From Trypanosoma brucei (Eukaryota), in assembly GCA_000002445.1 (NCBI GenBank), contig CP000069.1, positions 960,001-1,024,000 of the forward strand: a DNA stretch of 64,000 bases, given 5' to 3'. Made by a program: the position numbers and the translations under genes. Shown in pieces: positions 37,256-64,000 of the stretch. Below the pieces are notes generated by a model. The model was not told where the DNA came from. It worked only from the letters and a program-made list of their open reading frames with translations, and did no database searches. Every line of letters begins with the position of its first letter. Positions within the stretch are counted from its first letter, which is position 1.

Positions 37256-37402
37256 CATCGCTGTATTCTCCCGATACCGATCACCATCACATATTTTTCG
37301 ACGTTATCGTTGGAGACGACACAGACTCACTGAGCTGCCCGCGGCTTTGAAAACCCATGCACGCATAGCTAAAAGCTGACTGGAGGAATTTCCGTCTCAA
37401 GG

Positions 37403-40055: not shown

Positions 40056-41519
40056 TTGGAGTCTTCAAGATACTATGGATGGATGTTGCGAAAGATCAAC
40101 CCGAGTGTGCCTCCACAGTGCCGATGGTGCAACCCGCAACATGCAGCAATAGGGCCAACAATACAAACAGTCCCAACTGTTGCGACACGCACTCTTCAGA
40201 GAACCTCCGAACCAACCAAATGTACGGAATGTGATGCCACATACCAATACCTGTCGAATGCTGTAACGCACATGGTAAACAAACATGGCTTTGTGCGAGC
40301 TGATGCCCTCCGGAGGATCAAATACGGCGATGCAACACCCGCAGTGGACATCCTCCCGGAGACCCCTCCAGTGGTGGCGATCGTTTCTTTACCATCGAGC
40401 ATACGAGTCCTGATGAGACCGCAGGTGCTTTACTGTACCCTCTGTGCCTCCAAATTCGCAGTGCCAGGCCGACTATTACACCATCTTAGAACAATACATG
40501 GCATAGGCAGCGGTAGTTGCCGCGTGAAAAGGGGGCGAGAGAGCGAGGACTCAGTGCAAGGAGATGGTAGCGTCCCAGCAGCCCCAGCCCCTCAGGAAAC
40601 ACGGAAGCTGCCGTTTCAATGTGACCTGTGCGAGGCGAGCTTCAGTACACGTTCTTCCCTGTCACTACACAAGAAATTCAAGCATAAGAGCATAGTGACG
40701 GAGGACGGTACCGTGGTGGTGTTGCAATTCCCTCGTAAGCGTGCTCGTGAGGGAAACGTTGACGTGCCGGGGAAAGGCGAGGTGCAGTGTGGTGTGTGTC
40801 CAAAAGTGCTCAGTTGCAGTGACTCCCTCATCCGACACTGTAAGGCTTTCCACAAAGGTGAGGGAGTCGAGCTTAAATGCAGCAAAAGCACAAAATTGCG
40901 TGCCACTGATTCCCCGCATACAAATGCATCCATGTTGGTGCGCCCGACATGCGGAAGGCAGTGTGCTAGCAAAACTGGCCTCACCCTACATCAAAAGAAG
41001 ATGCACGGTATGAAGGTAGAGCGCGCTGTTACCAGCCAACGCGGCGACTGCGAAGAAACGTCGCTGCACCTGATGAGCTGTCCCGGTTTGAAGGAGTTAC
41101 GTGTCAGGTTTGCGGTAGAAGGTGAGTGTGTGCAGGATATATGTTTTTCCAAAAGGCTGGCGCAATTTCTCATTGCGGTTGAACGGAGCCGGCCGCAGGT
41201 GAAGTCCTCACCTAATGTAACAGTCATACAACCCACTCTCCCTTCTGCAACTTCCCAGCTTATTGCTGAGAGTGGAGCTAGCAGGAAAAGCACCGGACGC
41301 AGGAATAGTCCAGACACCCTCAGAGAGGGGGTATGCAGTCAACAAGCAACAGAAACAGAAAGAGGGGGAGAGAATAATAAACAAAGAACAAAATTCAAAA
41401 CAAAAGGATTGCTAATTGACATTTTTGTGAGAGTCCGGGGTGGGAGGCTTCTCGCCCCATCTGCTGTATTCCGTTTAACTGCGGAACTACAACAAAACGT
41501 TATAGAGAGGGTGTGTTAG
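40056..41519 (+). pseudogene. ingi copy 2 C-terminal C2H2 zinc-finger ORF (487 aa)
   Basis: Multiple C2H2 fingers (CTECDATYQYLSNAVTHMVNKHGF, CTLCASKFAVPGRLLHHLRTIHG, CDLCEASFSTRSSLSLHKKFKHK, CGVCPKVLSCSDSLIRHCKAFH). It is frameshifted relative to the upstream ORF. Confidence 0.75.
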
Positions 41520-41568
41520 GATGAATAATAAAGGGAGACTCTGCCACAGTCGCCAGACCGATAGCATC

Positions 41569-42750
41569 TCAGGGCTCTACGGTGATGGCTGATGGCCGTG
41601 CCAGTGGGGGGAAACTCTCACGAAGGCACGAAGAAAATTCCAAAAAAAAAAAAATAGAGAAGCATATATCCTGCACACACTCACCTTCTACCGCAAACCT
41701 GACACGTAACTCCTTCAAACCGGGACAGCTCATCAAGTGCAGCGACGTTTCTTCGCAGTCGCCGCGTTGGCTGGTAACAGCGCGCTCTACCTTCATACCT
41801 TGCATCTTCTTTTGATGTAGGGTGAGGCCAGTTTTGCTAGCACACTGCCTTCCGCATGTCGGGCACACCAACATGGATGTGTTTGTATGCGGGGAATCAG
41901 TGGCACACAATTTTGTGTTTTTGCTGCATTTAAGCTCGACTCCCTCACCTTTGTGGAAAGCCTTACAGTGTCGGATGAGGGAGTCCCTGCAACTGAGCAC
42001 TTTTTGGCACACACCACACTGCACCTCGCCCTTCCCCGGGACGTCAACGTTTCCCTCACGGGCACGCTTACGAGGGAATTGCACCAACACCACGGTACCG
42101 TCCTCCGTCACTATGCTCTTATGCTTGAATTTCTTGTGTAGTGACAGGGAAGAACGTGTACTGAAGCTCGCCTCGCACAGGTCACATTGAAACGGCAGCT
42201 TCCGTGTTTCCTGAGGGGCTGGGGCTGCTGGGACGCTACCATCTCCTTGCACTGAGTCTTCGTTCTCTCTCCAACTTTTCACGCGGCAACTACCGCTACC
42301 TATGCCATGTATCGTTTGAAGGTGGTGTAATAGTCGGCCTGGCACTGCGAATTTGGAGGCACAGAGGGTACAGTAAAGCACCTGCGGTCTCATCAGGACT
42401 CGTATGCTCGATGGTAAAGAAACGATCGCCACCACTGGAGGGGGCTCCGGGAGGATGTCCACTGCGGGTGTTGCATCGCCGTATTTTATCTTTCGAAGGG
42501 CATCAGCTCGCACAAAGCCATGTTTGTTTACCATGTGCGTTACAGCATTCGACAGGTATTGGTATGTGGCATCACATTCCGTACATTTGGTTGGTTCGGA
42601 GGTTCTCTGAAGAGTGCGTGTCGCAACAGTTGGGACTGTTTGTATTGTTGGCCCTATTGCTGCATGTTGCGGGTTGCACCATCGGCACTGTGGAGGCACA
42701 CTCGGGTTGATCTTTCGCAACATCCATCCATAGTATCTTGAAGACTCCAA
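41569..42750 (-). pseudogene. ingi copy 3 C2H2 zinc-finger ORF, C-terminally truncated at the breakpoint
   Basis: It matches the copy 1 and copy 2 ZnF ORFs up to ...VQDICFS, then continues into unrelated sequence (the copy 2 poly(A) region read in reverse). Confidence 0.7.
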
Positions 42751-45662
42751 CCCGAAAGCGTGCCAGTGCCGTTTCCTCTTCCCTCGTCAGTTCTTCTTTA
42801 TGTTTTGTTGGAAAGTGGTTGCACGTGATACCAAACCTATGAGTGTTCTCATGGACTTCTTCCGACCTAAGCACTCGCTTCGCATAAGCAATGATGTCGG
42901 GGATCCATGCGTCTCGCAACTGTGGTAAATCAGCGGCCTTTTTGGCCATTTCATCGAAAACCTCATTCCGTTTCACGCCACAATGGCCGGACGCAAATTG
43001 CAGTCGGATACGCACCTTCCTTCTCTGAACTTAAAGCAGAAGCCTCCATAGTCGTCTCAGAATTGGGTCCGTTACGGCTAGGGGGCCTGTCTGCAGTGCT
43101 GTTAACATTGACAGCGAGTCAGAGAAGATGGACAACCTGCTCGATGTGCTTCTGTATGCCGGAAGCCATTTCAGCAGCCGTTGCAGTCCTATCTCTAATG
43201 TTACGCATTCCGCTCTGTAACTGCATGAGAGTTCCCCTGCTCCGGTCTTGGGTGCACAAATCAGCGTGTTGTTTCTATAGAGCAGGGCAGTTGATCCGGA
43301 CTTCTCACCGAGGGGCACGGATCCATCAGTCCACAATTCGTAGTGCTCTCGTCGCGGTGGCTCCTTCCCCCTCCGTGCAAAATGCCGTTCAATCCACTTT
43401 TCGGGAGCCTCCCTTTTGACATCGTCAGGGTCATCAGCGCACACAGGCTTTATCTGCGTGTGAAATATCGGTCGGCAGCTGTGGCGGAGCGTCGATGTCT
43501 CTAGTGGGTGCTCGCGTGGCTCAATGCGGAGGTGGGGGTAGGACCGCATGATGCGGGAATGTAGGGCTCTGACTGGATGTTTGCTGTGGTATACTTCCTC
43601 AGCACTGCGCCGCAAACATCCGCCTCGTGACTCACACATCAGCATGAATTTCATGCTGCGCACAAGAGTGGTCGTCTTGAGTGGCAGGAGGTTTGCTTCC
43701 AGCAGAGAGTCCTCTTTGCGCGTCCCATGCGGTATGCCAGCTATGATTCGACTGGCTTTGTGTTGTGCTGCTGCAAGGAGGTCGCGACTTCGTTCCGAAG
43801 CGTCCCAGTACCATACCTCAATGCCACACATGGTGCGTGCCTGTACGAGTGCTAGATAAAAAGCTCTCAGCACTTGTCGTATTGGCCCCCATATAGAAGC
43901 TGAGATGACTGTTATCTGCAGTAGTCGGAAGTCCATCTTGCGTCTCGTTTCGGTCGCATGTGTTGCCATCCCTTGCAGACACTGGAATGTTACTCCTAGA
44001 AGCTTCGGTGTCCTGTCAGCTCCTATCCTTTCGCCGTCCAGTTGCAATGTAAGGGGGTGGCGCCCTATACACCCGAAGAGTGTGAACTTTGTTTTCGCTA
44101 CATTGATAGACATGAAGTACTCTTTTGACCACTGTAACACCACGTTTAGGCCGCATTGTAGCGTCTGGTTGATGACATCCCTCTCTGTGTGTCTCGCAAG
44201 TAGCGTCAGGTCGTCTGCAAAGAATCCGTGCTGCAGCAACGGCACTTCTGCAAGGCGTTGGCTCAACGAGTTCATGACAATAATGAACATGATTGGGCCA
44301 AGGACAGTTCCTTGTGGCACTCCTCGCTCAAATGTTCTGCTTCTGGAAAGCTTCTCCTTGAATCTCACTCTACCAGTTCGGTTACTCAGAAATGATACGC
44401 ACCACTTCACAATGTGGGGTGATACCTTCATTCTGTGCATTTCCCCCGCAATTTTGTCGTGGTCTACTGTGTCAAATGCCTTCTCGTAGTCAACGAATAC
44501 AGCACCTGTACGATATTGGTGCGTGGGACGGCAGAGGGCAGCGCAGACGTGCAGGAGTTGTTCGAGCGGTGAGCATCCGGGGCGAAAGCCTGATTGCTGC
44601 GGCGTCAGCTGGGACTCAACAGTGTCTCTAAACCTTGCGGCAATTATGCGCTCCATGACTTTGCAGAGACAGCTCGTGAGCGTCACAGGCCTGTAAGAAT
44701 CGAGGTACTCTTCCTTTTTTCTGGCCTTCAGGATGGGGATGATAACACCGGTCTTCCATGCAGACGGCACGGCTCCCATTCGTAGGCTCTCATTGAATAG
44801 CCTCAGCACAACATTCAGCGCTGCTCTACCGAGATGTTGCAGTGCCTCGTTGTATAAGCAATCAGGTCCGGCTATGGATCCACTCGGTAGCAGTTTGATC
44901 GATCTCCGTAGTTCAGCTATCGTGATGAGACTAAACTCACTCGCTATCGTCTTTATGTGTGCCGGTGGGTGTGAGTCGGGGTGCCTTCTTGCGCGGGATG
45001 AGTACAGTTTACTGAACCTCTCAGCTTGACGGTAGTCCGTGATGGCCGCGTTATCAACAAGTACAGCCGGTGTGGTTAGTGGTCGTGGCGCGTATACTTT
45101 CTTGACAATGTGCCAACTGCAGCGGTCTGACACCGCAAGTCTGGAGCATAGCGTGCTCCATCTCTTCTTTGTGGTGCGGTCCAGGATCTGCTTACGCGTG
45201 GCTACCAACTTTTCCCTTCGGTGAGAGGGTCCGTATCCAGCGATCTCTTCATCGAGTTTCGCGAGCGCAGGTGTCCAATGTGGTGGCGTTGCTCTGCAGC
45301 CACGGGGAACGGAGACCTTCGTCGCAATGCGGATGGCGGAGCTCAATTTCTGTTTCAGGGTGTTGACATTCTTCTCTCTACCAATTTTCCTGCAGAGCTC
45401 GTCAACCTTGAGACGGAAATTCCTCCAGTCAGCTTTTAGCTATGCGTGCATGGGTTTTCAAAGCCGCGGGCAGCTCAGTGAGTCTGTGTCGTCTCCAACA
45501 ATAACGTCGAAAAATATGTGATGGTGGTCGGTATCGGGAGAATACAGCGATGTCCACCTGGACACTGTGAAATTCCTTGATAGCGTCATATCAGGGGTGG
45601 GCTCCACGTGGTGGCGCGCGTACCTGGTGCACTCACCAGTGTTACATACCAGAAGCTGGTTG
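41663..45662 (-). mobile_element. ingi copy 3 (minus strand), truncated at both ends. The 5' end lies in the APE domain at about 45662 and the 3' end at an internal site in the ZnF region at about 41663, so there is no 3' tail or poly(A).
   Basis: It is the reverse complement of copy 2 at about 98 percent identity and shares the same premature stop (...RRLWRLLL). The RT ORF is 43031-45346, followed by 42572-43015 and 41569-42750 on the minus strand. Homology to copy 2 stops at gatatatg (reverse complement of 41663-41670), whereas copy 2 continues there with tttttccaaaaggctggcg.... Confidence 0.85.
43031..45346 (-). pseudogene. ingi copy 3 RT-RNase H ORF (771 aa)
   Basis: Nearly identical to the copy 2 ORF. 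An extra GA near the 5' end (tagagagaagaatg against tagagaagaatg) shifts the first 19 codons out of frame. Confidence 0.8.
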
Positions 45663-47452: not shown

Positions 47453-48388
47453 TTACCCGTGGGGAGGGGTGTCCCGACGCGCAGTTGTCGGCGCCGGGCA
47501 GGCTGCCCTTTTCGGTGGAGTGTCGGCTTGCGCAATGCGCACAGGCAGGCAAAAACAAGGACCACAATTCGCATGGCTAAACTTTCCCCAGTCTGCCAAA
47601 TCAGTGGCTGAGTGAAGAAACTGTGCTTCCTCAATTTTGGGGCATACATCGCTTACTTCGGCTTCTGGTTTGTATAACTGTGAAAATTTCCGCGTTCGTT
47701 TTTCTAATAGACCAAGATCACGTGCCACCTTTGCCTCCTGGCGTATTGCAGCAAGATGTGCGGCATTTGCTTCCTCCACTCGCCTTATGATGCGGTGCTT
47801 CTCGTTAATCAACCTTTTAAGTTCCCTTTCTGCGTCTGCATGTGCGGCCTGGGATGAGAGTCCCTCATTTTCCTCCTGCACAACCGAGTCATATGCGTCG
47901 CATTCCTTAATCTCGTTTTTCAAAGTCTCCAGCTTGAGTCGCAGCTGCCCAACTTCCATACTAAGACTATGTATGGAGTGCTTCACTTCGAGGTATTCCC
48001 GTCTTTGCAACGCTTCTGTGGGTGATTTCTTACCAACTGTCCCCTTGCCCGTATTGAAGCACGCACCCATACCATTTATTTTGATGATCGCCTCTTTCCT
48101 CTGTGAACGCGCGGCCTCAAGTCGCAATTCCAGTTTAACCACTTCACCGTAGTCAAGCACATCAGTTGCCATGGAGGCAATCTGATCCCCCAACAGCGCC
48201 TTCTCTTCAAGCAGTTTGCCCAGCAATTCTTCAAGATACCGAAGTTCCTCCTCATCTTCGCTAAGCTCCACATTCCGACGTACTTGTTTTGCATGAGCGA
48301 ATCTTCTGGATGAGGGCCGTGCCGATTCAGCTGCTTTCCCAACTTTAACCAAAGGGGCTGTTCCCGGTCTCTTGTTCTTTAGTGTCAT
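47453..48388 (-). CDS. Hypothetical coiled-coil protein (311 aa)
   Basis: First long ORF of the minus-strand array. It is rich in heptad-like E/K/L segments (LRLEAARSQRKEAIIKI, LKLETLKNEIKE). The start is uncertain. Confidence 0.5.
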   Translation of the reverse strand: MTLKNKRPGTAPLVKVGKAAESARPSSRRFAHAKQVRRNVELSEDEEELRYLEELLGKLLEEKALLGDQIASMATDVLDYGEVVKLELRLEAARSQRKEAIIKINGMGACFNTGKGTVGKKSPTEALQRREYLEVKHSIHSLSMEVGQLRLKLETLKNEIKECDAYDSVVQEENEGLSSQAAHADAERELKRLINEKHRIIRRVEEANAAHLAAIRQEAKVARDLGLLEKRTRKFSQLYKPEAEVSDVCPKIEEAQFLHSATDLADWGKFSHANCGPCFCLPVRIAQADTPPKRAACPAPTTARRDTPPHG

Positions 48389-48863: not shown

Positions 48864-49913
48864 TCAAACTTGCGTCAGCAGGACATCCTTGCAATAGTCC
48901 ACCTCAAAATCCTCGAGGTCCTGTAGGTTTAGCGTTAACGTCCACAACCCGTGTGCCTTTACGCTCCGCCCCTCGCTCACTGGTGCATTGGCTACACTAA
49001 GGGGATCCATGCATTTCGTAACGGCCCACTTACGCTCCAGGGACAATTCTTCTCGAAGCGATTCCTGCATGAGATTCACAATTATGCGCCCTACGGGAAC
49101 CACTTCCCATGTGTGGTCCACCTGTTTACGCCTTATCTTACAGACACGCTTCAGTGCGTCCGCCTCTTGCACCGCCCATGCCGCTAAATGTATGTGCCGT
49201 GGTCCTTCACACGTTCCAAACAGCATATAGTCAAAGTTGCTCGTTTTATTACTAACATCGATAGCGCAGATGTCCCGGACCTTAAGTGACCGCAAAACTT
49301 CTAGTATCTCCTTTACATCTTCTATATATGCCTTCCGCCCGTCCTGCCAAGTTTCGTCGAGGGATCCCTCAACTTCCATTTCCAACAACATGTCTGCAAA
49401 CCGCTCGTCATCGTATGGAAGTGGCTGTTTCGATCCCGTGCTTGTGGGTTGCTGAATCGTCTCCTCCAGAGTGTCACTAGCCAAAACGCGGAGGGCGCTG
49501 CGACTGTTCGTCCGCTGTTCCTCCTGGCGACTGGAAATTGGAATGTTAAGCCGGGAAAATACCTGACCCTCTGGAATATCGTTTTCCCTGACGACGCCGA
49601 GTTCTGAAGAATCCCCCACTTCTCGCCGCGCACTGGCTGATCCCAGCGCATTTGTAAGATCATCCAGTTGGAGATCAACAAAATCGCTCTCCCCGCCATT
49701 GGAGAGCGGCAGCGGCGGCGGAGTCCCATCATTCGTGAACGCATCACTTGAATGCCAGCGGGCAGCTTTCAGCGGCAGGTGACAACACAACCGATTTCGC
49801 ATCCTTCCACTTTCGCGAATCAACTCAAAACAGCACCAACGAAACGAAGGCGTAGTTTGAAATACACCACGCGCATAGCAGCCAGGTGTTGATTTGCTAA
49901 AAATTCGCCGCAT
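48864..49913 (-). CDS. Ribosomal silencing factor RsfS / iojap-like (DUF143) protein with a long N-terminal extension, likely organellar
   Basis: The C-terminal about 110 aa, ILEVLRSLKVRDICAIDVSNKTSNFDYMLFGTCEGPRHIHLAAWAVQE...VVPVGRIIVNLMQESLREELSLERKW, parallels E. coli RsfS ([45 protein letters not shown]...[20 protein letters not shown]). Confidence 0.65.
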   Translation of the reverse strand: MRRIFSKSTPGCYARGVFQTTPSFRWCCFELIRESGRMRNRLCCHLPLKAARWHSSDAFTNDGTPPPLPLSNGGESDFVDLQLDDLTNALGSASARREVGDSSELGVVRENDIPEGQVFSRLNIPISSRQEEQRTNSRSALRVLASDTLEETIQQPTSTGSKQPLPYDDERFADMLLEMEVEGSLDETWQDGRKAYIEDVKEILEVLRSLKVRDICAIDVSNKTSNFDYMLFGTCEGPRHIHLAAWAVQEADALKRVCKIRRKQVDHTWEVVPVGRIIVNLMQESLREELSLERKWAVTKCMDPLSVANAPVSEGRSVKAHGLWTLTLNLQDLEDFEVDYCKDVLLTQV

Positions 49914-51460: not shown

Positions 51461-54001
51461 TCATACCTCACGGTTTTCAATCCAGTGAACGGAGCAACTC
51501 TCCTCGATGTCCTTCGCACCTTTTTTGTTTCCACGCAAGTCATTTTGCAGGTAAGTGCCACCACCGCCTTTGCACACCCAAACGCCCTCGTAGCGATTCC
51601 CATGAATTTTATTTCGCATCACATGTGGGCGACTGTTAGAGGTAACAATAATACCCGCACTGTAATTATTCAGCACTTCATTCTCTTCAATGACACCGGC
51701 ACCTTCCTGAAACACATAAATACCTGCTTCTCTTCCTTGCCGAATAATATTTCTTGACACATTTGGCGAGGCCCGCTCTTTAATGAGAATCCCGGCTCGG
51801 TTGTTCCTCCGAATTTCATTTTCGACAATAATAGGGGCAGCTTCGGCACAACAAAAGACACCTGCCTTTTGGTTGGCTGTGATGTGATTCCGTTTGAGGA
51901 CAGCATTTGCACAGGGACCCTTCGCCACCACACCGAAACTGCCATTGTTTGCTATGTGGTTCTCTTCTACCGTACCATGTGCGTTATGTAAAAAAATTCC
52001 CGTAACTCCGCCATCCACCACATCGTTTCTTTTGACACATGCAGTGCTATCCTTTTTAAGCAAGAATCCGGCCAGTTTGCAGTTCTTCACCGTATTCTTT
52101 TCAAAGAGACCATGGGCCCCTTCGAGAACAACAACACCTGCGGTTTTGGTATCACATATATGGCAGTGGGAAACAATGGCATCTACGTCACTGTTTACTG
52201 TGATGCCACTCCCATTTGAGCTTGAAATCCGGCAGCGGGATATTTTCCACTCACCCCCAACGAGAGATATGGCTCCAAAATGGGAATCCTCTTTATCATT
52301 TGCCTCAGCAGGCTCCACTGCGTATTCCTTCTTTGTCTGTCGAGCGATGTGACGAATGACGAAATTTTCTATAGTGCCCCTACCAGCTATGCAGTGTATA
52401 GCGAAGGGCCCATCACTTACTTCAACAATGGGTAGGGGATCTTCACCGATAATGCTCAAGCTGTCTGGTAAATCAGCTCCCAACACAAGTGGATCCGTGA
52501 ACACAGCTGCTTCTTTGACCACAATATTACGTACATGAGATAGTCCTTTAACAGCCTGCAGCGCGGTTTGTAGCGTTGGGTAGTCCCTGGGGACACGAAT
52601 TGTTGTATCTTTTATGTTCCGGCCCGCACCGCGAGCGAAAAAGTCAAACAAAGGTGTTACAATGTGAGGACTTGGGCTGAGACCGCTCCTATCACCACAA
52701 GATATGCGTCTCGGAGTCAGAAAACGTGATGAAGTGCTGCTTGCGCTCGATGCCCGCCACTTCACCAGTCGCATCGCCGAGCCGCTCTCATCTCTGAGCC
52801 AGTGAGTACGAGTACTTCGACCGCTACACGTGACACTGTAAGGTGTACGCTCGAGGCTGCTGCAGCTCCGCCGGCTTCGACTTGCCTTTTCAGAATCTTT
52901 TTTGCACGACTGCACGCCGTTAAAGTTTGTGGGACTTGCCATGTGCTCTGTGTCACATCCATTGCTCAACAACGCTGCGAGACTCGAGGGTGTTGCACAT
53001 CTAGGGGCGCTCGGTGTCGTGATACCATTGGATTGCACCACCGCACTTAACATGGCGTCCAAACGACACGAAATGTCTTCGAGAGAGGGCCGATCATCAG
53101 GCGATCGATATAACATATCACGCAGAAGTTCTCCCAGATGTCCGGAGAAACCCATGTCCGTTACTTGCTTCACAACCTTTTCCACAATTGAAGGATTTTC
53201 AATCACACGACTGTTTATGGGCTGCTCCTGCAAGGTGGTAAGCTCTAACATCACCACACCTAATCCCCAAACGTCTACCTTTCCATCGTACTCCTCCTGG
53301 AGCATATGTTCCGGAGCGATGTAGAGCGGTGTGCCTACAACTTTCTCTTGCGACATCCCAACCGCCACGGCCAAGCCAAAGTCACCAATCTTCACATTTC
53401 TACCCTCGTCTAGGAAAATATTTGTGGGTTTCAAATCTCTATGCAGAAACCCTTTCCTGTGAATGAATTTAAGTGCCAGAACACACTGCTTCATCCACAA
53501 AACCACACGTCTTTCCGAAATGGGGTGAAATCCAGTTGCGACAAAGCTTCTCTTCGATTTACTTATAACCACTCCCAAATCCCCGTAAGTGCATAATTCC
53601 ATAACGAGACAAACGCATATCTCATTTGGACCAATTTCCACCGCATCCTTGCCGTCTCCGCAGCTGTTATTCGTAACTACCCCAACTGCATCGACAGGCA
53701 TGTCCTCACTATATCCCTGTGAGTCGGTTGAAATAGTCGTCTTTTTGGTAGGGAATTCGAACAGCAAGCGGCGAACTTCATTTGCGTCAGACACAAGAAA
53801 AAAATCCTTGTACGACACGATGTGTGGGTAGCGTAGTTGTAGCAGTACCTTGATTTCCTTTAGCGCTGCGTTAACAGACGAAATGTCGTGGCATCGAATT
53901 ACTTTCATAGCGAATTTCCGCCCAGTTCGGACGTGAATAACACTAAGCACAGAACCCTGTGCGCCACTACCAATTGGACGGTAAATAGTGTAATCCTCCA
54001 T
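51461..54001 (-). CDS. Ser/Thr protein kinase (NEK-like catalytic domain with a large insert) fused to a C-terminal right-handed parallel beta-helix (PbH1/CASH) repeat domain
   Basis: 846-aa ORF. Kinase motifs are IGSGAQGSV, FAMKV, HRDLKPTNIFL, DFGLA and GTPLYIAPE. The C-terminal about 300 aa is a series of about 22-residue repeats with the spacing N/D-x-G-x-G-(I/V) (NNGSFGVVAKG, NQKAGVFCCAEAAPIIVENEIRRNNRAGILI, EAGIYVFQEGAGVIEENEVLNNYSAGIIVTSNS, GNRYEGVWVC), characteristic of PbH1 beta-helix repeats. Confidence 0.7.
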   Translation of the reverse strand: MEDYTIYRPIGSGAQGSVLSVIHVRTGRKFAMKVIRCHDISSVNAALKEIKVLLQLRYPHIVSYKDFFLVSDANEVRRLLFEFPTKKTTISTDSQGYSEDMPVDAVGVVTNNSCGDGKDAVEIGPNEICVCLVMELCTYGDLGVVISKSKRSFVATGFHPISERRVVLWMKQCVLALKFIHRKGFLHRDLKPTNIFLDEGRNVKIGDFGLAVAVGMSQEKVVGTPLYIAPEHMLQEEYDGKVDVWGLGVVMLELTTLQEQPINSRVIENPSIVEKVVKQVTDMGFSGHLGELLRDMLYRSPDDRPSLEDISCRLDAMLSAVVQSNGITTPSAPRCATPSSLAALLSNGCDTEHMASPTNFNGVQSCKKDSEKASRSRRSCSSLERTPYSVTCSGRSTRTHWLRDESGSAMRLVKWRASSASSTSSRFLTPRRISCGDRSGLSPSPHIVTPLFDFFARGAGRNIKDTTIRVPRDYPTLQTALQAVKGLSHVRNIVVKEAAVFTDPLVLGADLPDSLSIIGEDPLPIVEVSDGPFAIHCIAGRGTIENFVIRHIARQTKKEYAVEPAEANDKEDSHFGAISLVGGEWKISRCRISSSNGSGITVNSDVDAIVSHCHICDTKTAGVVVLEGAHGLFEKNTVKNCKLAGFLLKKDSTACVKRNDVVDGGVTGIFLHNAHGTVEENHIANNGSFGVVAKGPCANAVLKRNHITANQKAGVFCCAEAAPIIVENEIRRNNRAGILIKERASPNVSRNIIRQGREAGIYVFQEGAGVIEENEVLNNYSAGIIVTSNSRPHVMRNKIHGNRYEGVWVCKGGGGTYLQNDLRGNKKGAKDIEESCSVHWIENREV

Positions 54002-54416: not shown

Positions 54417-55478
54417 CTACGCAAAGCTATGCGTCTGTGCTTTACCCAGGGTTCCACGTAATGATCGATAGCACGCCATACCGTGCAACCAACATGCAAC
54501 GGATGGGGGTGTTACTTTACCGCCTAAACAGTCTTTGATGAACAGTTCAGCTCCCTCACAATCAACGATATCATCCAAGTGCACAACTACCAGAGAATGC
54601 GGAACCGACTCAAATGCATCAAAACCAACACGACTGTCGAAGCGCGCCTGCACTTCGGCAGCGGTTTGGTTCACCTCCACCCAAAAACAAGCATCAGGTT
54701 TCATATTCTTCATGTTCTCCACAATACTGAGTAGACCTCTGTTACGGCATGCGGTGCGTTCAACACCAAGCTCATCAGCTACCTCCATCACAGCACTGTC
54801 AAATAAATGCTGAACAATCACTTCAGGGTTCACGCCACTTAGTTGCGACACCGCCTCCTCCCGTCTAAGCCTATCATTTAACAAATCACTATTTTGCACA
54901 CTATTGTGATTATGGTCAATATTATTATGGTTCCCCGTAGCAGGCCCACTTAACGGTAGTTGGCAAAGGATGTCTTGTGGCTCTGGGTGGCCACCAGGGA
55001 AGCAATAATAGCCGGGATATTCACTCACTAGCGACGAGCGACAAAACATCACAGCCTTTTCGTCGGAGGTCGTTGTAAAACACTCAATTCCGAGTGCACG
55101 AGCGAGGTATTTCCGCCTATCTGTGCCGCCGTCACTGGTAGAACGTAAAAAATAGTCGACATTCGTAGCTACTCCCATACTGGATTTATAATCTGTTATT
55201 CCAAGTTGCAAATGGCACTTACCATTATCATACTGGACAACGTTATGAAGCCGGAATTTCAATCCGTTGTGCAGTATTTTCCTTTCCAACCCCTTCATCA
55301 ACTTCCTCCACGTCTCCTCAATGATGCTATGCTCCTCTGCGAGGCCTTCCAGCCGACCAAATGAGTCATCTACCGTAACTTCCACTCTGGAAGGAGGATA
55401 CGGGTCTCCAGCACAATCTGCCGATGCGTTAAAAGCGAGGAAGATAGTTTCAAACCCGTAAATTGCACTCTTACTCAT
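54417..55478 (-). CDS. NUDT22-like Nudix-family hydrolase (UDP-sugar pyrophosphatase family)
   Basis: 353-aa ORF. KFRLHNVV and YYCFPGGHPEPQDI match human NUDT22 landmarks (KFRLHSATL...VDVPGGHPEPQAL), and the overall length is similar. Confidence 0.6.
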   Translation of the reverse strand: MSKSAIYGFETIFLAFNASADCAGDPYPPSRVEVTVDDSFGRLEGLAEEHSIIEETWRKLMKGLERKILHNGLKFRLHNVVQYDNGKCHLQLGITDYKSSMGVATNVDYFLRSTSDGGTDRRKYLARALGIECFTTTSDEKAVMFCRSSLVSEYPGYYCFPGGHPEPQDILCQLPLSGPATGNHNNIDHNHNSVQNSDLLNDRLRREEAVSQLSGVNPEVIVQHLFDSAVMEVADELGVERTACRNRGLLSIVENMKNMKPDACFWVEVNQTAAEVQARFDSRVGFDAFESVPHSLVVVHLDDIVDCEGAELFIKDCLGGKVTPPSVACWLHGMACYRSLRGTLGKAQTHSFA

Positions 55479-55910: not shown

Positions 55911-58352
55911 TTACCGTTGCCCCATCAACTGGACTCCACCATTTGATGTTCCAATGGCGAGCACATTTTCTATGGGGTGCCAACAGATGGCTGTCGCCGT
56001 ATCGGTGACTGGCAGTTTGTCCAAAACCGCACCAGAACCTACATCATAAATAAAGACATTACGAGTTTCGCTTCCAACGGCTACGAGGGCACCGGTTGGC
56101 GAAAACGCAACCCCGACGGCTGTCGCATTGCTGCGGTGCTGAGCGAGCTGACGAACAGAGCGCTTTTGCCTAATATCCCACAAACGCACTGTACTATCCA
56201 TTCCCGCTGTAAGACACATGTGGAGGTGATTGCTTCCGATAGAGGCGTAACGGCCAGCTGTCAGCAACGCCACGCTGTGTATGGGTCGCGTGTGTGCTTC
56301 CTCTATCACGTTAATGTTTTGCCCAACATGTAAGTCATACACGCCGAATGACTTGTTTGACGCTGCCCACACCACAACATTGGAGGCGAAGTGATTGATA
56401 GCGTCGACCCCGACCACGTGCTGCGCCGAGGGTACTGTAAACTCGAGTGCGGGCTTCATCTTTGATTCATTCCGCTTCCTATCCAAATCCCCTCCACCAT
56501 CATCCAAACAATAACGACAGAAATTTACGCTGTTTGCAGTGGCATAGCATATAAACTTGTCCGTGTAAACAAATTTAACTGCTCGCACGTCCCTCCCCAC
56601 CTTCTGTACGATATAAGGCGAAGCGCGCTTTGTAGGCCGCCACACGGCCACTACACCATCGCATGAGCCTGTGACCACAACAGGTGCGTTAAGAGACATA
56701 TTAGCATCTATAGAGCTCAGGGGTGCAGTATGTACCCGTAATGCCGTTCCGTCGCCCTCATTCTTTGCCACCGGCATCTTCAGCATAAAAGCCGATGCGT
56801 CACCAGATGCAGTTACCAGTGCAGAGCCACTGGCGGTAAATTTAGCCGATGTTATGACAGCACGGTGAATGGGAGAAGAAAGAAGAAATCTATTAGCGGC
56901 TGTCATCGGCTGAAGAGGTCGGTTGGACAGTGGCAAAAATTTGTATCGTGGAACGGCAACGGCTGTGGACGGATGCTTGGGTGCCCTTGTAGCCCTTTCA
57001 CGCAACTTCTTCTGCCGCTGTTGCACACTCCACGGGACACTGGCGGTGTAACCGCTACTTTTGATAGGGCGTCCAAACGTCACCGGTTTATCCGTAGGCA
57101 TCTTTTTATCTCTTGCAACGCTCAATTTTCCGGTGTTCCGGGTGGAAGGGACCTTCTGCTGATTATGTTGGGGAGGTAATTGCAGGGGTTCCAGTAGATG
57201 CGGGGGCAATGGAAATCGTGCGTGCATGATGTCGCTGGAAGGATCAAAAGAATCATCACATCCATCTCCCAAAATACCATCCACGGCAGACAAGTACAAC
57301 AACTCTTGCGTGCCCGATACTAAGGCACACCATGAGCCATCTCTTGACGCCGCAGAAATCTGTGGAGTTTTCTCACCGAAAAATAACGTATTACTGTCTA
57401 ATAATTCCATCGAATTTTTGTTGTAGTAAACAACCGCATCTGTGCGCATTACTACCATTATCGACCGACCAACGACCACTTCCATCACACGGACCCCTCC
57501 ATAAAGGGATACATGCTCTGGTATATCGACATCCCGATATATCTGCTTCGTCACATCAAGGACGAAAAAAACCTGCAAATTATCCTGCTGAACCAACTTT
57601 ATTGTGCCGTCTGATAAACCAACAACAAGATGTCCTTCCTCACTACCTCCAACCGCAAAACATGTTACCTGTTGAGCTCGAGTTATAATATGACCATCCC
57701 TTTGGAGATAAGGTTCCACACTCCACCACTCTTCATTACAGTGGAGACTTACTAGATGATTTCCCCTTGAAATGGCAAACAAAATGCTGCCGCCAAAGGC
57801 AGCGAATGCTGCACCGGCTTCACCGTACCAACAACTGCAGTCCAGAAGCAACAGGGTAGGTGCCACACCATCCGCAAGATTGTACCGTAATCGGCAATCT
57901 ACCAAAGTAATTCCACAAGGAGAACACACAGCTATGGTAGTGCCGTCGGTAGACCACACAACATGGGTGGCACCAGGTGGAACACCATTACAAAGGAACT
58001 CTTCATTTAAGAGAAGCACTTCATCCGCGTCATCGTCATCATCATCTCCGTAATCATCGTTTCCGTGTCCGAAAGACAACGCAGAGCTCCACGTGAAGAG
58101 AGCTGCTGACGATTCTCCAATAACCGCAACTTTCTCTTGGAATACGGAAAGAAGGATGGGCACAAATCCCATTTCCACTAGCGGATGCATGTTGGGCTCC
58201 TCTTCTCCACATTCCCATGCGTACATGACTGCCGGCCCACTGCCGTTGCTTTGACTACACCACAGTAATCGTTGTGACGATAGAGCCATGCAGTTCACAA
58301 TTCCCCCATTTATCTGGATAGCGCGAGGCGTAGCTCCCGTTTCCTTATACAT
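55911..58352 (-). CDS. WD40-repeat protein (813 aa)
   Basis: Several WD-like units, for example TAGMDSTVRLWDIRQK, AFSPTGALVAVGSETRNVFIYDV and ICWHPIENVLAIGTSNGGVQLM, plus an acidic DDDDDDAD tract. Confidence 0.65.
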   Translation of the reverse strand: MYKETGATPRAIQINGGIVNCMALSSQRLLWCSQSNGSGPAVMYAWECGEEEPNMHPLVEMGFVPILLSVFQEKVAVIGESSAALFTWSSALSFGHGNDDYGDDDDDDADEVLLLNEEFLCNGVPPGATHVVWSTDGTTIAVCSPCGITLVDCRLRYNLADGVAPTLLLLDCSCWYGEAGAAFAAFGGSILFAISRGNHLVSLHCNEEWWSVEPYLQRDGHIITRAQQVTCFAVGGSEEGHLVVGLSDGTIKLVQQDNLQVFFVLDVTKQIYRDVDIPEHVSLYGGVRVMEVVVGRSIMVVMRTDAVVYYNKNSMELLDSNTLFFGEKTPQISAASRDGSWCALVSGTQELLYLSAVDGILGDGCDDSFDPSSDIMHARFPLPPHLLEPLQLPPQHNQQKVPSTRNTGKLSVARDKKMPTDKPVTFGRPIKSSGYTASVPWSVQQRQKKLRERATRAPKHPSTAVAVPRYKFLPLSNRPLQPMTAANRFLLSSPIHRAVITSAKFTASGSALVTASGDASAFMLKMPVAKNEGDGTALRVHTAPLSSIDANMSLNAPVVVTGSCDGVVAVWRPTKRASPYIVQKVGRDVRAVKFVYTDKFICYATANSVNFCRYCLDDGGGDLDRKRNESKMKPALEFTVPSAQHVVGVDAINHFASNVVVWAASNKSFGVYDLHVGQNINVIEEAHTRPIHSVALLTAGRYASIGSNHLHMCLTAGMDSTVRLWDIRQKRSVRQLAQHRSNATAVGVAFSPTGALVAVGSETRNVFIYDVGSGAVLDKLPVTDTATAICWHPIENVLAIGTSNGGVQLMGQR

Positions 58353-58664: not shown

Positions 58665-60362
58665 TCACAATGACGAATCCTGAGAAAGCATGTGTACTGT
58701 GTTAAGGAAAAGTGCATTGCTCGCAACTTTCTTCAACTCAGACCTTTCACCTCCAGAACCACCAAGCACGGCTTCGCGAGTACTCAACTCCATGATGTGT
58801 TCCATTTCCTTCAATTGCAGCAGTACATCAGTTTCATCCCTCTCAGAGGGGTACACCGCGTGGCTGCGGCCCGTCTCCTCTTCGTTAGACTCAGTGGTAT
58901 TGTCACTGCCGCTGCAAACGCTTGCACCATCGTTGAATAAGTAATCATCTAATCGGTTCACATCGTCCCCTGTAAGAGTCTGCAGACGTTCTGCCTCCTG
59001 AGCATAAGCGTAGAGCCAACTGGTACTGTGACTGCGAAGTGTCGGTACATTCATTACTTTACGTCGTAAGTTGCAGAGATAGCGCTGAGAGAAAATATCT
59101 TCACCACTTTCATTGCTTTCTTGAAGGTTTCCTCCACCTCCTTTCTTCACATCTTTGAGAAAACTTTCAATCACAGCTGCATGTGACCCCGCTACATCCC
59201 TCCGCAGGCGCTGTAGTGCAATTGTGAGCTGGAGTCCATGAAGAAGTTCCTCTTCTGTTGCTTCAACTGCGACGCAACTTTCATCTCCACCACTTGCGGA
59301 ACGCTGCTGAAGAGAATATGTCGTAGCGCAAAGCGGCGTCGAAATGAGCGATGGTGGAGCTGCTGAACAGTGTAGGTGGGCGAAAATGTAACGGGGAATG
59401 CGCAGAGGAACACGCACATAGCAACCACTTTGTGTCAGCATGCGGTATTCTTCAACTACACCGCGCACCATACTCTCTGCACCGGAGTACTGTGTTGGGG
59501 CAAGTGCACCATTCCGCAACCAATGTAGTGGCTGACGAGCGGTATGATGAAGCAGCGCAGCACGTGCAAGTGTTGGGTTTTTATCCACCAATTCGGCAAC
59601 GGGTGCTGGAACCGCAACCACAGCAAGGTGCCACGACCCTTCACGCATAGTGGAGGCCACTCGGCGCGCCCACACTTGCAACGCTTCCGTCATTTCCTCC
59701 TCAAGGAAACGCTTCCGTACTGAATCGTCTACTTCAAGTAATGTAAGAAGAGGTTCCAACCTTTCATAGCATTTATCACGGAGGGACTGCTGCTTTAGGG
59801 ACTTCTGACGGGGTCTCAACTGACCATTAGGTCGCAGGGGGACAACAAAAACGGAACCACCCATCATAATAACACGACCAACCATTCTCTGATGATAATC
59901 ATATTCCTCTGCACCCCAGCGACTGAGGTATTCACCACGTGTTCCTTCAGAGTTTTCGATGATATCTGCAAGTTCGAGCAGCAACACATCCGTTTCTTCC
60001 TCCTCCTCCTCCTCCCTCTTTACCGTGCCTTCACTTTCCGTTACTGCTGCAGTTAATCCCTGAATGGCTTCGGTCAGGTCCAAAAGCATCATGGCGGTCA
60101 CTCGCGTATCTTCATCGTTCCCCCCTAAAGATAAATAAGCCTCGAATGCGTAATAACCACACCTGTGAGTACCGGAAGAGAACAAAGTTTCCGGAAGAGA
60201 AAGAGGTGTAAGATTGCTAAAGAGATTGTCCTCCGTCCACAAATAGGAACTGGTGGCATGATAACTGCGCTGCGAGTGCTTACGCAGTGAATAAAGCAAA
60301 TCCGTACGTGTGGGCGGGGAATGTGAGTACGTACCAAGAAGAATCACATTTAGTACCATCAA
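58665..60362 (-). CDS. Hypothetical protein (565 aa) with an acidic EEEEEE tract
   Basis: Long ORF in the minus array. No motif recognised. Confidence 0.5.
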   Translation of the reverse strand: MMVLNVILLGTYSHSPPTRTDLLYSLRKHSQRSYHATSSYLWTEDNLFSNLTPLSLPETLFSSGTHRCGYYAFEAYLSLGGNDEDTRVTAMMLLDLTEAIQGLTAAVTESEGTVKREEEEEEETDVLLLELADIIENSEGTRGEYLSRWGAEEYDYHQRMVGRVIMMGGSVFVVPLRPNGQLRPRQKSLKQQSLRDKCYERLEPLLTLLEVDDSVRKRFLEEEMTEALQVWARRVASTMREGSWHLAVVAVPAPVAELVDKNPTLARAALLHHTARQPLHWLRNGALAPTQYSGAESMVRGVVEEYRMLTQSGCYVRVPLRIPRYIFAHLHCSAAPPSLISTPLCATTYSLQQRSASGGDESCVAVEATEEELLHGLQLTIALQRLRRDVAGSHAAVIESFLKDVKKGGGGNLQESNESGEDIFSQRYLCNLRRKVMNVPTLRSHSTSWLYAYAQEAERLQTLTGDDVNRLDDYLFNDGASVCSGSDNTTESNEEETGRSHAVYPSERDETDVLLQLKEMEHIMELSTREAVLGGSGGERSELKKVASNALFLNTVHMLSQDSSL

Positions 60363-61858: not shown

Positions 61859-62820
61859 GGTTCAGGTTACTTTTTTCTCCTAACTTCTTTGACGGTTCTT
61901 TCCTACAACCCACAAAGCGACATCAATATCAACAGTAATAATAGTAATAAGAACATCGTCGACGGGACATAGTGAATGGAAATGGAAGGAAAACACAAGA
62001 GGAATGAATTTACGAGTATTGATGTGTGTGTGTGTGTGTCGAGGGGAGGGGAGACAACCATAATTCTAACGAAAGTACGACACGAATTTCATATTGATAT
62101 TTGTACATTAACAGGCTGTTTCACTTATTCCTTTTATGGTTTATCCACCACTTCGTTTTGCCTCTCCGCCAGTTCGCCCAGCAGTTCAAATGAGCAGATG
62201 CAGTGCTACGCCGTAGTAAAAGCTAATTAATTAATGTGTCATGCATTTGTCTATAACGTTATTTTTACTTTCCTATATGTGACGTGGTGAGAAGATAAAA
62301 GAGAGTGATAATAAAAAGTGAAAATATTGTTCATTTACTTCTACAACTTCAAAAAACTCAATTTGTAGCATCAAACTTTATAATTTTCATGATATCACGA
62401 ACACTGGAGCGGATCACAGTGATCAATGTTAATCAAACGGAATGCACTGCATAAACAAGTAAACAAGCACAAGCGCACGACAGAAATAGAAAGGAAAAAA
62501 AAAACAAACAAAAGTACTGTGGTGTGACGACAACAACAATAAAGGCAGTACGATAATTTTATTTTTGAAGAAAAAAATAATTAATTTATCGTCCATGCCG
62601 CGTTATTTACTTTTCCCTTACCATCTAGTACGTTTGTCTTTTTTTTTTTTCAACTTCTGCATATGATATTGTTTCGCTTGTTTGTCTGCTGGTTCTGTTT
62701 TCCCTCCTCACATTTTCATATTTCCTTGAAAAAAGGAAAAAAAGTAAATAAAGAAAAACATCTTTAGTAACAACAAAAAAAAGCAAATATTCCCCCCTTC
62801 GCTGTGGTTATATACACAAA

Positions 62821-62856
62821 TATATATATACATATATATATATTTATACATATATG
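62821..62856. repeat. Imperfect (TA)n / TATACA low-complexity tract
   Basis: tatatatatacatatatatatatttatacatatatg, read directly. Confidence 0.8.
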
Positions 62857-64000
62857 TCTGACGAGGGTTAAAAAAAAACCGACAACAAATATGCAAAAAA
62901 AAATCGTGAAGATTATATCTCACCACGTGTGCGAGTCTTAGTTTTTTTTTATTTTTACAAAACAAATTCTCTACCTCACTAACACTATATGTGACGAATT
63001 TTATTTTTGTGTCTTCCGTGTTTTCCTTCAACTCCTTTCCTTCTTCAAATTATTTAATTTACTTTTCTTCGCTTTCGCTTTACTCCAACCCCCACCCACT
63101 TTTTTTTTTATTTTCCTTCATCTTTTTTTTTTTAAATGTCCCCTTCTTTTTCCCCTTTGAATGGTGTGAAAACAAGAAAAAAAAAGGAAAGGAAAGATGG
63201 AAAAGGGAAAAAAAATTTCTTTGTTTCCTTCAATATATATATTTATTTATTTACCTCTCTGTTGTTGATTTCATTTCTACTGCCCTTTTCTTTTGTTCCC
63301 TTCCCCCACTCAACAAATACTTTTAAAATAATGCAAATAGATAAATATATATGTATTGTATATACGTATATTTGAACAACTTTCTAGTAAGGGAAGAAAA
63401 AATTTTAATGGATGAAAATAAATATTTCTTTGCATGAAAATGTAATGGGAAGCAAAGTGGTAAAAAATGTTGCGGAGTTTGCCCGTCACGCACAGATTTT
63501 ACTCCTACTCTCATCATATGTTGATGTTCCTCTTTTTTTTTCCCCCTTCTTCTTTTTTATTTTTTTTACTAATTTTCACTTTCATTTGTATTTCTTCCGC
63601 ATGAGGTTTTTCGTGACATATGCAAACATACACACAAAAACACAAAAAACATAAAGAAGAAAAAAAAAAGGGAACGACAAAAAACAAAAAAAGAAATTGG
63701 TGAGTGAGCCTAACAGCCAGTCAAAATAATATAAAATAATAATTTTATTTAAAAAAAAACGGCATAAATATAAATAAATACAAAACAAAAGGCATACATA
63801 TATAAACTCACACAAACAAACATACATATAAATATATAAATATATATTTTAGAGGTGAAGAGGAAAGTTGGATACACATTTTCATAAATAAAAGCAAAAT
63901 AGATTGAAATGAAATGAGAATAAATTTGAGGAGCTTTGTAAAGAGATGTTGGAAGAGGTGAGGATGGGGTGGAGGAAAGGAAATAATTTTCTTGACAAAG

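What the first reader, a model, noticed from the sequence alone, without database searches (positions are those of the whole stretch)
51461..54001. Protein kinase fused to a parallel beta-helix (PbH1/CASH-like) repeat domain
A eukaryotic protein kinase catalytic domain (NEK-like GTPLYIAPE signature) is followed by at least eight tandem PbH1-type repeats. This fold is usually found in carbohydrate-binding or lyase proteins and in FBXO11-type CASH domains. The domain combination is uncommon and suggests a kinase that senses or binds glycans or polymers. It may be lineage-specific.
Basis: inference. Interest (0 to 1): 0.6.

Follow-up and report, generated by a model that had tools for sequence, protein, structure and literature searches.

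The report
Known trypanosome NEK kinase with beta-helix tail
This is the already catalogued but unstudied Trypanosoma brucei kinase NEK10 (Tb927.6.3430): an active-looking NEK-type protein kinase joined by a floppy linker to a real, highly conserved beta-helix domain that most likely acts as a cytoplasmic protein-binding or targeting module rather than a sugar sensor.

Summary

The gene is T. brucei Tb927.6.3430, published as "NEK10" (Other/NEK). RNAi caused no fitness loss in bloodstream forms. Its Leishmania mexicana orthologue LmxM.29.2130 is dispensable and localises to the basal body.

The architecture is conserved across Euglenozoa (kinetoplastids, a diplonemid, euglenids). Most orthologues also carry a B-box zinc finger in the linker, which T. 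brucei has lost. T. brucei has also replaced the conserved activation-loop Ser/Thr with Lys.

The glycan-sensing interpretation is weak. The protein is cytoplasmic and lacks the one carbohydrate-enzyme motif tested (AlgG DPHD). By sequence its helix is closest to FBXO11-type substrate-receptor repeats and to beta-helices fused to other effector domains.

Verdict: a real, catalogued, functionally uncharacterised lineage-specific NEK variant of moderate to low interest.

The parts
51461..54001 (-). Complete CDS of Tb927.6.3430 (TbNEK10), 846 aa plus stop codon
   Evidence: ORF list. 100% identical to T. brucei proteins XP_845461.1/Q584Y3. The published RNAi primers for Tb927.6.3430 match at 53151-53170(-) and 52706-52725(+).
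53027..54001 (-). Protein kinase catalytic domain, aa 1-325, NEK-type, predicted active
   Evidence: Pfam Pkinase E=2.7e-48. NEK1 E=6.7e-29 and NEK2 E=5.7e-28 are the best PDB sequences. Foldseek top hits are NEK2. AF2 pLDDT is mostly above 85. Catalytic residues are invariant.
53621..53791 (-). Trypanosomatid-specific insert in the kinase N-lobe (aa 71-127): short helix then disordered loop
   Evidence: Absent in euglenids and the diplonemid, short in Bodo, up to about 110 aa in Leishmania. 12-35% identity even among trypanosomes. AF2 pLDDT below 50 for aa 84-120.
53420..53443 (-). Catalytic loop HRDLKPTN (aa 187-194)
   Evidence: Invariant in 38 orthologues. Aligns with NEK2 HRDLKPAN.
53309..53383 (-). 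Activation segment DFG...APE (aa 207-231), with Lys220 at the position of the NEK2 T175 phospho-acceptor
   Evidence: Alignment to NEK2. Every non-brucei orthologue tabulated has Ser/Thr at this position, and all 7 T. brucei-group sequences have Lys preceded by Glu.
52616..53026 (-). Disordered Ser/Arg-rich linker (aa 326-462); degenerate remnant of the region that carries a B-box zinc finger in most orthologues
   Evidence: AF2 pLDDT about 30. Composition is 20% Ser and 12% Arg. B-box Pfam hits appear in T. theileri, T. rangeli, Leishmania, Bodo and Ploeotia but not in T. brucei or T. congolense. Cys/His ligand table.
52253..52615 (-). N-terminal cap and irregular first coils of the beta-helix (aa 463-583), including a low-confidence loop at aa 557-570 (52292-52333)
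   Evidence: AF2 models. 42-49% identity within trypanosomatids.
51494..52252 (-). Eleven consecutive 23-residue PbH1-type repeats (aa 584-836), one beta-helix coil each
   Evidence: Periodicity z=10.4 at lag 23. Repeat register. Three strands per 23 residues in the AF2 model with pLDDT 97-99. No gaps in six of the eight orthologues compared and only 1-2 in Ploeotia, Euglena and Artemidia; 70% identity to T. congolense and about 40% to euglenids, equal to the kinase core.
51464..51493 (-). C-terminal end of the beta-helix (aa 837-846)
   Evidence: AF2 strand 837-841. N843 is invariant.

Best explanation
The locus encodes TbNEK10 (Tb927.6.3430), a cytoplasmic, catalytically competent NEK-family Ser/Thr kinase.

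Its C-terminal 380-residue right-handed parallel beta-helix (CASH/PbH1 type) is tethered by a roughly 135-residue disordered linker. I propose it serves as a rigid binding platform that docks the kinase onto a protein partner or substrate. By analogy with the Leishmania orthologue, this would be at the basal body or flagellum base. This is the way FBXO11 uses the same kind of repeat to recruit proteins to an SCF ubiquitin ligase.

Shown: gene identity, domain architecture, intact catalytic residues, the fold, strong purifying selection on the helix, conservation across Euglenozoa, loss of the ancestral B-box, and the activation-loop Ser-to-Lys change in T. brucei.

Published: dispensability in culture (T. 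brucei RNAi, L. mexicana knockout) and basal-body localisation of the Leishmania orthologue.

Inferred: that the helix binds protein rather than glycan, and that it directs localisation or substrate choice.
For: - Identity.
- Active kinase of NEK type; published class Other/NEK (PMC3894213 supplement).
- Beta-helix fold.
- The helix repeats are as conserved as the kinase core and almost free of indels from trypanosomes to euglenids, so the helix is functional and not a decaying appendage.
- Cytoplasmic: no signal peptide or TM segment.
- Closest sequence relatives of the helix are FBXO11-type proteins (F-box + zf-UBR) and helices attached to other effector domains (TIR, caspase, CHAT, SIR2, PNP, PknB-type kinases). 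This is a recurring 'effector + beta-helix' design.
- The FBXO11 CASH domain is described as the protein-substrate recognition element (PMC13394945).
- Orthologue LmxM.29.2130 (identity verified from the tagging primer) localises primarily to the basal body and is dispensable in promastigotes (PMC7902614 supplements).
- NEK kinases typically carry C-terminal targeting or regulatory domains, such as coiled coils and PH domains in trypanosomatid NEKs (PMC1266030).
Against: - No binding partner, ligand or substrate is known, and no experiment addresses the helix itself.
- Most solved structures with this fold act on polysaccharides, so a non-protein ligand is not excluded.
- I could not find localisation data for T. 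brucei itself.
- The margin by which NEK1/2 beat ULK3, PAK and PLK in sequence searches is only about 3 orders of magnitude, and I built no phylogeny.
Confidence: 0.55

Rival explanations
1. Glycan or polymer sensor kinase: the beta-helix binds a carbohydrate or another repetitive polymer, and this controls or targets the kinase.
For: The fold's solved representatives are dominated by polysaccharide lyases, epimerases, hydrolases and phage depolymerases. The Pfam NosD and Beta_helix families belong to the pectate-lyase-like group. CASH was named for carbohydrate-binding proteins.
Confidence: 0.17
2. Intramolecular regulator or oligomerisation module: the beta-helix docks on the kinase domain (autoinhibition) or drives self-association, as C-terminal domains do in several NEKs, rather than recruiting other molecules.
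For: NEK family precedent for regulatory C-terminal domains (established knowledge; trypanosomatid examples in PMC1266030). The long flexible linker would allow back-folding. T. brucei has lost the usual activation-loop phospho-acceptor, which suggests regulation by another route.
Against: The full-length AF2 model has pTM of only 0.54 and a linker at pLDDT about 30, so it gives no confident sign of a fixed kinase-helix arrangement. I could not inspect inter-domain error estimates or coordinates. The same helix type is attached to unrelated effector domains, which fits a portable binding module better than a kinase-specific regulator.
Confidence: 0.18
3. Bifunctional enzyme: the beta-helix is itself catalytic (lyase, epimerase, hydrolase or similar).
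For: Many beta-helix proteins are enzymes. Several charged residues in the helix are conserved: K694, K741, E758, E805, D821, R823 and D831.
Against: The only catalytic motif I tested (AlgG/AlgE DPHD) is not matched. The coils are very regular 23-residue units without the long T3 loops or insertions that usually build active-site clefts. The closest relatives are non-enzymatic repeats.
Confidence: 0.05
4. Artefact: the repeat pattern or the fusion is spurious (chance ORF, misassembly, or two genes read as one).
For: None found.
Against: The same uninterrupted architecture occurs in more than 45 orthologues from independent genomes and transcriptomes. All domain E-values are far below chance. 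The periodicity z-scores exceed 10.
Confidence: 0.01

Closest known systems
NEK (NIMA-related) kinases, e.g. human NEK2/NEK1 and the expanded trypanosomatid NEK family
   Same: The catalytic domain is most similar to NEK1/NEK2 by sequence and fold. It has an HRDLKPxN(I/V)FLD catalytic loop and a GTPxYxxPE motif. The design is an N-terminal kinase plus a C-terminal non-catalytic domain. The Leishmania orthologue localises to the basal body, in keeping with the centrosome/cilium theme of NEKs.
   Different: The C-terminal domain is a parallel beta-helix (plus a B-box in most lineages) instead of coiled coil, RCC1, PH or armadillo. There is a roughly 57-aa N-lobe insert. T. brucei has Lys at the NEK2-T175 position. 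Despite its name, it shows no specific relationship to human NEK10: there are no armadillo repeats, and the top hits are NEK1/2/4/6.
FBXO11 / FBXO10 (DRE-1) F-box proteins with CASH (PbH1) repeats
   Same: The same sub-type of 23-residue beta-helix repeat, with 32-35% identity over 230-260 residues to FBXO11-type proteins. Both are cytoplasmic or nuclear. In both, an effector module is joined to a beta-helix and accompanied by a zinc finger (UBR box in FBXO11, B-box in most NEK10 orthologues).
   Different: There is no F-box and no UBR box. The effector is a kinase, not an SCF adaptor. Domain order differs. Protein-binding by the NEK10 helix is inferred, not shown.
Bacterial PknB-type Ser/Thr kinases with C-terminal beta-helix repeats, and TIR-, caspase-, CHAT-, SIR2-, PNP-beta-helix proteins from metagenomes
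   Same: The same 'N-terminal effector + C-terminal CASH-like beta-helix' layout, and the helix repeats are close in sequence (E 1e-35 to 1e-92).
   Different: The kinase domains belong to a different family: 142-276 bits to the PknB model (above 220 for five of the eight scanned) versus 94 for TbNEK10. These are therefore independent fusions. Their organisms and functions are unknown.
Carbohydrate-active parallel beta-helix proteins (AlgG/AlgE4 epimerases, PL6 lyases, K1 capsule lyase, phage tailspikes) and NosD
   Different: Only 12-17% identity. The catalytic DPHD motif is absent. The protein is not secreted. The NCBIfam NosD family score of 34.7 is far below its cut-off of 300.

Membership tests
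Eukaryotic protein kinase (Pfam PF00069), catalytically active | Gly-rich loop, VAIK Lys, alpha-C Glu, HRD, catalytic Asn, DFG, APE | tested here: met
   G11-x-G13-x-x-G16, K33, E49, H187-R188-D189, K191, N194, D207-F208-G209 and A229-P230-E231 are all present and invariant or nearly invariant in 38 orthologues. Pfam E=2.7e-48.
NEK family | Catalytic domain closest to NEK kinases | tested here: met
   The best PDB sequences are NEK1 (6.7e-29) and NEK2 (5.7e-28), ahead of ULK3/PAK (about 1e-25). Foldseek top 11 are NEK2. The best non-orthologous database hits are named NEK4/NEK6. Published class is Other/NEK. I built no phylogeny, and the margin is modest.
NEK family | Activation-loop Ser/Thr phospho-acceptor equivalent to NEK2 T175 | tested here: not met
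   K220 in T. brucei (all 7 brucei-group sequences). Ser/Thr in every non-brucei orthologue tabulated. The family as a whole meets this feature, but the T. brucei protein does not.
Orthologue of human NEK10 | Armadillo repeats flanking a central kinase domain; specific sequence affinity to HsNEK10 | tested here: not met
   No Arm hit, and the kinase is N-terminal. The top hits are NEK1/2/4/6. The name NEK10 in T. brucei is only a serial number.
Right-handed parallel beta-helix (Pfam Beta_helix PF13229, pectate-lyase-like fold) | Profile match above threshold; three-stranded coils stacked into a solenoid | tested here: met
PbH1 / CASH repeats | Tandem repeats of about 22-23 residues with the conserved Gly and Asn pattern | tested here: met
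   The TIGR03804 parallel beta-helix repeat is found in 4 stretches, E=2.7e-13. There are 11 repeats of exactly 23 residues, with a Gly anchor and an Asn ladder. The SMART PbH1 and CASH models themselves were not available.
FBXO11/FBXO10 | F-box domain that binds SKP1 | tested here: not met
   No F-box or F-box-like Pfam hit even at E up to 1. True FBXO11-type relatives do show it.
FBXO11/FBXO10 | C-terminal UBR-type zinc finger | tested here: not met
   No zf-UBR hit.
B-box zinc finger (PF00643/PF22586) | Eight Cys/His zinc ligands in the C-x2-C...C-x2-C...C-x2-C...H...H pattern | tested here: not met
   No Pfam hit and no ligand pattern in T. brucei. The feature is met in most orthologues, consistent with Parsons 2005 Table 2 (Tb 0, Tc 0, Lm 1).
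Alginate C5-epimerase-type beta-helix enzymes (AlgG/AlgE) | Catalytic DPHD motif on the helix | tested here: not met
   The motif aligns to F-L-H-N in T. brucei and F-C-Q-D in most orthologues. NCBIfam AlgG scores 12.4 bits against a cut-off of 700.
NosD (nitrous oxide reductase maturation) | Family-level profile match; periplasmic location | tested here: not met
   TIGR04247 scores 34.7 bits against a cut-off of 300. There is no signal peptide. The Pfam NosD hit reflects shared repeats only.
Secreted or surface beta-helix proteins (tailspike-like, autotransporter passenger) | Signal peptide, TM segment or export signal | tested here: not met
   The N-terminus is kinase strand beta-1. The highest 19-residue hydropathy window (1.94) is the kinase beta-5 core. 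This was a simple hydropathy scan; no dedicated predictor was run.

The most novel reading that the evidence does not exclude
The NEK-B-box-beta-helix proteins may be an ancient Euglenozoa-specific 'reader kinase' of the basal body or flagellum. In this reading the beta-helix recognises a particular cytoskeletal protein state or repetitive modification, for example a tubulin or basal-body protein modification, or a cytoplasmic polymer, and so directs phosphorylation. African trypanosomes would then have rewired its control by losing the B-box and, in T. brucei, replacing the activation-loop phospho-acceptor with Lys. More broadly, CASH-type beta-helices would be a general, portable target-recognition module that different lineages have plugged onto kinases, F-boxes, TIR domains and caspases.
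Probability: 0.12. Interest if true: 0.6.

Novelty: new variant of a known kind. Interest (0 to 1): 0.33.

Why it matters
NEK kinases are greatly expanded in trypanosomatids, and most have no known role. This one carries an accessory domain that I found on no NEK outside Euglenozoa, and that domain is as conserved as the catalytic core, so it probably determines what the kinase acts on.

If the helix is a protein-recognition platform, as in FBXO11, it offers a way to find basal-body or flagellar substrates. It would also be an example of the same recognition module being reused with different effector domains across life.

The practical importance is limited. The gene is dispensable in cultured T. 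brucei bloodstream forms and in Leishmania promastigotes, so it is not an obvious drug target. The gene and its Pfam domains are also already in public databases.

Tried and rejected
- **Literature search for the gene or its architecture.** Searches for 'Tb927.6.3430', 'Q584Y3', and beta-helix + NEK + T. brucei found no main-text hits. The combined PbH1/CASH/B-box/NEK search found only Parsons 2005 mentioning the B-box.
- **T. brucei localisation.** The gene is not in the TrypTag supplements held here, so T. brucei localisation remains unknown to me.
- **AlphaFold-database fold search.** The library was not installed.
- **Word-indexed homologue search with the C-terminus alone.** It returned only 11 hits and missed the orthologues. 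The exhaustive representative search was needed.
- **PDB sequence search with the helix.** It gave only marginal AlgG hits.
- **Mapping conserved residues onto the helix faces.** Not possible, because model coordinates are not exposed to scripts.
- **Leishmania bar-seq data.** The mutant's share falls about 2.5-fold over 168 h in culture and further, but noisily, in macrophages. I did not find that the authors call this a phenotype, so I do not use it as evidence.
- **Rejected ideas.** Membership of FBXO11 (no F-box or UBR), NosD, or AlgG-type enzymes; orthology to human NEK10; a secreted or surface location.
Full report
**Observation**

The window carries a single 846-aa ORF on the minus strand at 51461-54001, exactly as stated.

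Pfam finds a protein kinase domain (E=2.7e-48, split in two stretches by an insert). It also finds a C-terminal right-handed beta-helix region (PF13229, E=2.6e-35; NosD PF05048, E=4.6e-23). NCBIfam finds the parallel beta-helix repeat model in four stretches.

I tested the repeat claim directly. BLOSUM62 self-similarity of aa 576-846 peaks at lags 23, 46 and 69 with z=10.4, 11.0 and 7.6 against shuffled sequences. The kinase-domain control never exceeds z=1.5. An explicit register shows 11 consecutive 23-residue units (aa 584-836) with a conserved Gly and an Asn ladder and no indels.

**Identity**

The protein is 100% identical to T. brucei proteins annotated 'protein kinase, putative' (XP_845461.1, UniProt Q584Y3, chromosome 6).

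The RNAi primers published for Tb927.6.3430 in the kinome-wide screen of Jones et al. 2014 match the ORF exactly, at 53151-53170(-) and 52706-52725(+). That paper lists the gene as NEK10, class Other/NEK, with no loss of fitness in bloodstream forms.

The name is a serial number. There is no sign of specific relationship to human NEK10: no armadillo repeats, and the best hits are NEK1/2/4/6.

**Anatomy**

An alignment of 38 orthologues shows every catalytic residue present and invariant or nearly so: Gly loop, K33, E49, HRD187-189, K191, N194, DFG207-209 and APE229-231. The kinase is therefore predicted active.

The closest solved relatives are NEK1 and NEK2 by sequence (6.7e-29 and 5.7e-28, against about 1e-25 for ULK3/PAK). 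NEK2 is also closest by fold.

AlphaFold2 on the full alignment gives four regions:
- **aa 1-325:** a confident kinase domain.
- **aa 84-120:** a disordered, trypanosomatid-specific N-lobe insert.
- **aa 326-462:** a disordered Ser/Arg-rich linker (pLDDT about 30).
- **aa 463-846:** a beta-solenoid at pLDDT 95-98.

**Distribution**

The same architecture occurs in:
- all Trypanosoma species sampled;
- Leishmania, Leptomonas, Porcisia and Novymonas;
- Bodo saltans;
- many metagenomic or transcriptomic sequences;
- the euglenids Ploeotia vitrea and Euglena longa;
- the diplonemid Artemidia motanka.

Beyond these, database hits drop abruptly to ordinary NEKs without a helix. The family is therefore Euglenozoa-wide and apparently Euglenozoa-specific.

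The 23-residue repeat region is as conserved as the kinase core: 70% against 67% identity to T. congolense, and about 40% against about 43% to euglenids. It has no gaps in six of the eight orthologues compared and only 1-2 in the others. The insert and linker are poorly conserved. The helix is clearly under selection.

First, most orthologues carry a B-box zinc finger between kinase and helix. This shows in Pfam PF00643/PF22586 and in the full eight-ligand Cys/His pattern in about 37 sequences, with two copies in Ploeotia and one other sequence.

T. brucei and T. congolense lack it, T. cruzi has a degenerate copy, and Euglena longa and Artemidia lack it. This agrees with Table 2 of Parsons et al. 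2005 ('B-box Zn finger: Tb 0, Tc 0, Lm 1, NEK'). That table does not list any beta-helix domain.

Second, the residue aligned with the NEK2 activation-loop phospho-acceptor T175 is Ser/Thr in every non-brucei orthologue tabulated. It is Lys (preceded by Glu) in all seven T. brucei-group sequences.

**What the helix resembles**

An exhaustive HMMER search with aa 466-846 finds 7,353 relatives at E up to 1e-3 and 204 at E up to 1e-30. Among the best 150:
- seven are further orthologues;
- 22 carry a different kinase domain, and all eight of these scanned with NCBIfam have PknB-type bacterial kinase domains, scoring 142-276 bits against the PknB model versus 94 for TbNEK10;
- others are true FBXO11-type proteins with an F-box and a UBR zinc finger;
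- others have TIR, caspase, CHAT, SIR2 or PNP domains at the N-terminus.

Direct BLASTP to an FBXO11-type protein gives 32-35% identity over 230-260 residues, E=2e-34. The best solved carbohydrate enzyme (AlgG) reaches only E=0.02.

Kinase + beta-helix proteins also exist in Anaeramoeba and Pelomyxa, with other kinase types and other domain orders. The combination is therefore unusual but has arisen repeatedly. The general design is 'effector domain + CASH-type beta-helix'.

**Mechanism**

The protein has no signal peptide or TM segment, so the helix is cytoplasmic.

The AlgG/AlgE catalytic DPHD motif aligns to FLHN in T. brucei and is not conserved in orthologues. The coils are very regular, without large loop insertions apart from one low-confidence loop (aa 557-570).

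The CASH repeats of FBXO11 are described as its protein-substrate recognition element (PMC13394945).

I verified that LmxM.29.2130 is the L. mexicana orthologue. The published N-terminal tagging primer encodes MEEYNIKRKI, which is identical to the N-terminus of the L. mexicana protein. Baker et al. 2021 report it as dispensable in promastigotes. Its primary localisation is the basal body, with secondary signal in cytoplasm and flagellum.

Putting this together, the best-supported reading is an active NEK kinase whose beta-helix is a protein-binding or targeting platform at the basal body or flagellum base (confidence about 0.55). The alternatives are:
- glycan or polymer binding (about 0.17);
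- an intramolecular or oligomerisation role (about 0.18);
- catalysis by the helix (about 0.05).

**Novelty and verdict**

The gene is catalogued, classified and screened. Its Pfam domains are already precomputed in public resources, and its B-box was noted in 2005.

What I could not find in the searchable literature is any discussion of the beta-helix on this NEK, its Euglenozoa-wide conservation, the B-box loss, or the T. brucei activation-loop change.

It is best described as a lineage-specific variant of a known kind: a NEK kinase with an unusual accessory domain. It is real but of moderate to low interest, given its dispensability in culture and the absence of functional data.

Noticed in passing
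window 27650-32130 (+), 37250-41625 (+), 41657-45662 (-): Three copies of a non-LTR retrotransposon (reverse transcriptase PF00078 E about 1e-43 plus a C2H2 zinc finger; ingi-like, with broken ORFs). Two are direct copies about 9.5 kb apart at 97-98% identity. The second and third lie tail-to-tail as a 3,721-nt inverted repeat, 99% complementary, with a 507-nt spacer. This sits exactly where coding switches from the + to the - strand, i.e. a convergent strand-switch region.
   Followed up: partly
window 53342-53344 (codon for Lys220), within activation segment 53309-53383 (-): T. brucei-group NEK10 has Lys (preceded by Glu) at the position of the NEK2 T175 activation-loop phospho-acceptor. Every non-brucei orthologue tabulated, including T. 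congolense, has Ser or Thr. This suggests the T. brucei enzyme is regulated differently or is constitutively active.
   Followed up: partly
window 52616-53026 (-) (linker, aa 326-462); orthologues P0004 aa 354-394, P0010 aa 389-429, P0035 aa 267-310, P0030 aa 281-370: A B-box zinc finger lies between kinase and beta-helix in most Euglenozoa (two copies in Ploeotia). It is lost in T. brucei and T. congolense, degenerate in T. cruzi, and absent in Euglena longa and Artemidia. This implies repeated secondary loss and agrees with Parsons 2005 Table 2.
   Followed up: yes
proteins P0159, P0168, P0171 (TIR), P0182 (caspase), P0179 (CHAT) and others: Many metagenomic proteins join a CASH-like beta-helix very similar to this one to TIR, caspase, CHAT, SIR2 or PNP/phosphorylase domains, or to PknB-type kinases. 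The layout is reminiscent of effector + sensor-repeat proteins of prokaryotic conflict systems. Their organisms and functions were not determined.
   Followed up: partly
L. mexicana orthologue LmxM.29.2130 (PMC7902614 supplementary bar-seq tables): The raw barcode share of the knockout falls from about 0.004 at 0 h to about 0.0016 at 168 h in promastigote culture. In macrophages at 72 h it is lower still but very variable (0.00002-0.002). This may be a mild fitness cost. I did not find the authors calling it a phenotype.
   Followed up: partly
window 54417-55478 (-), 55911-58352 (-), 48864-49913 (-), 47453-48388 (-), 58665-60362 (-): Neighbouring genes on the same strand are a 353-aa protein with no Pfam match, an 813-aa protein with C-terminal WD40 repeats, a 349-aa protein with an RsfS ribosomal silencing factor domain (E=5e-14), and two further ORFs with no Pfam match. 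Nothing links them functionally to the kinase.
   Followed up: partly
window 62001-64000; tandem repeat 63752-63838: The last 2 kb of the window drops to 31% GC and contains a 30-nt A-rich tandem repeat in 3 copies. I did not examine it further.
   Followed up: no
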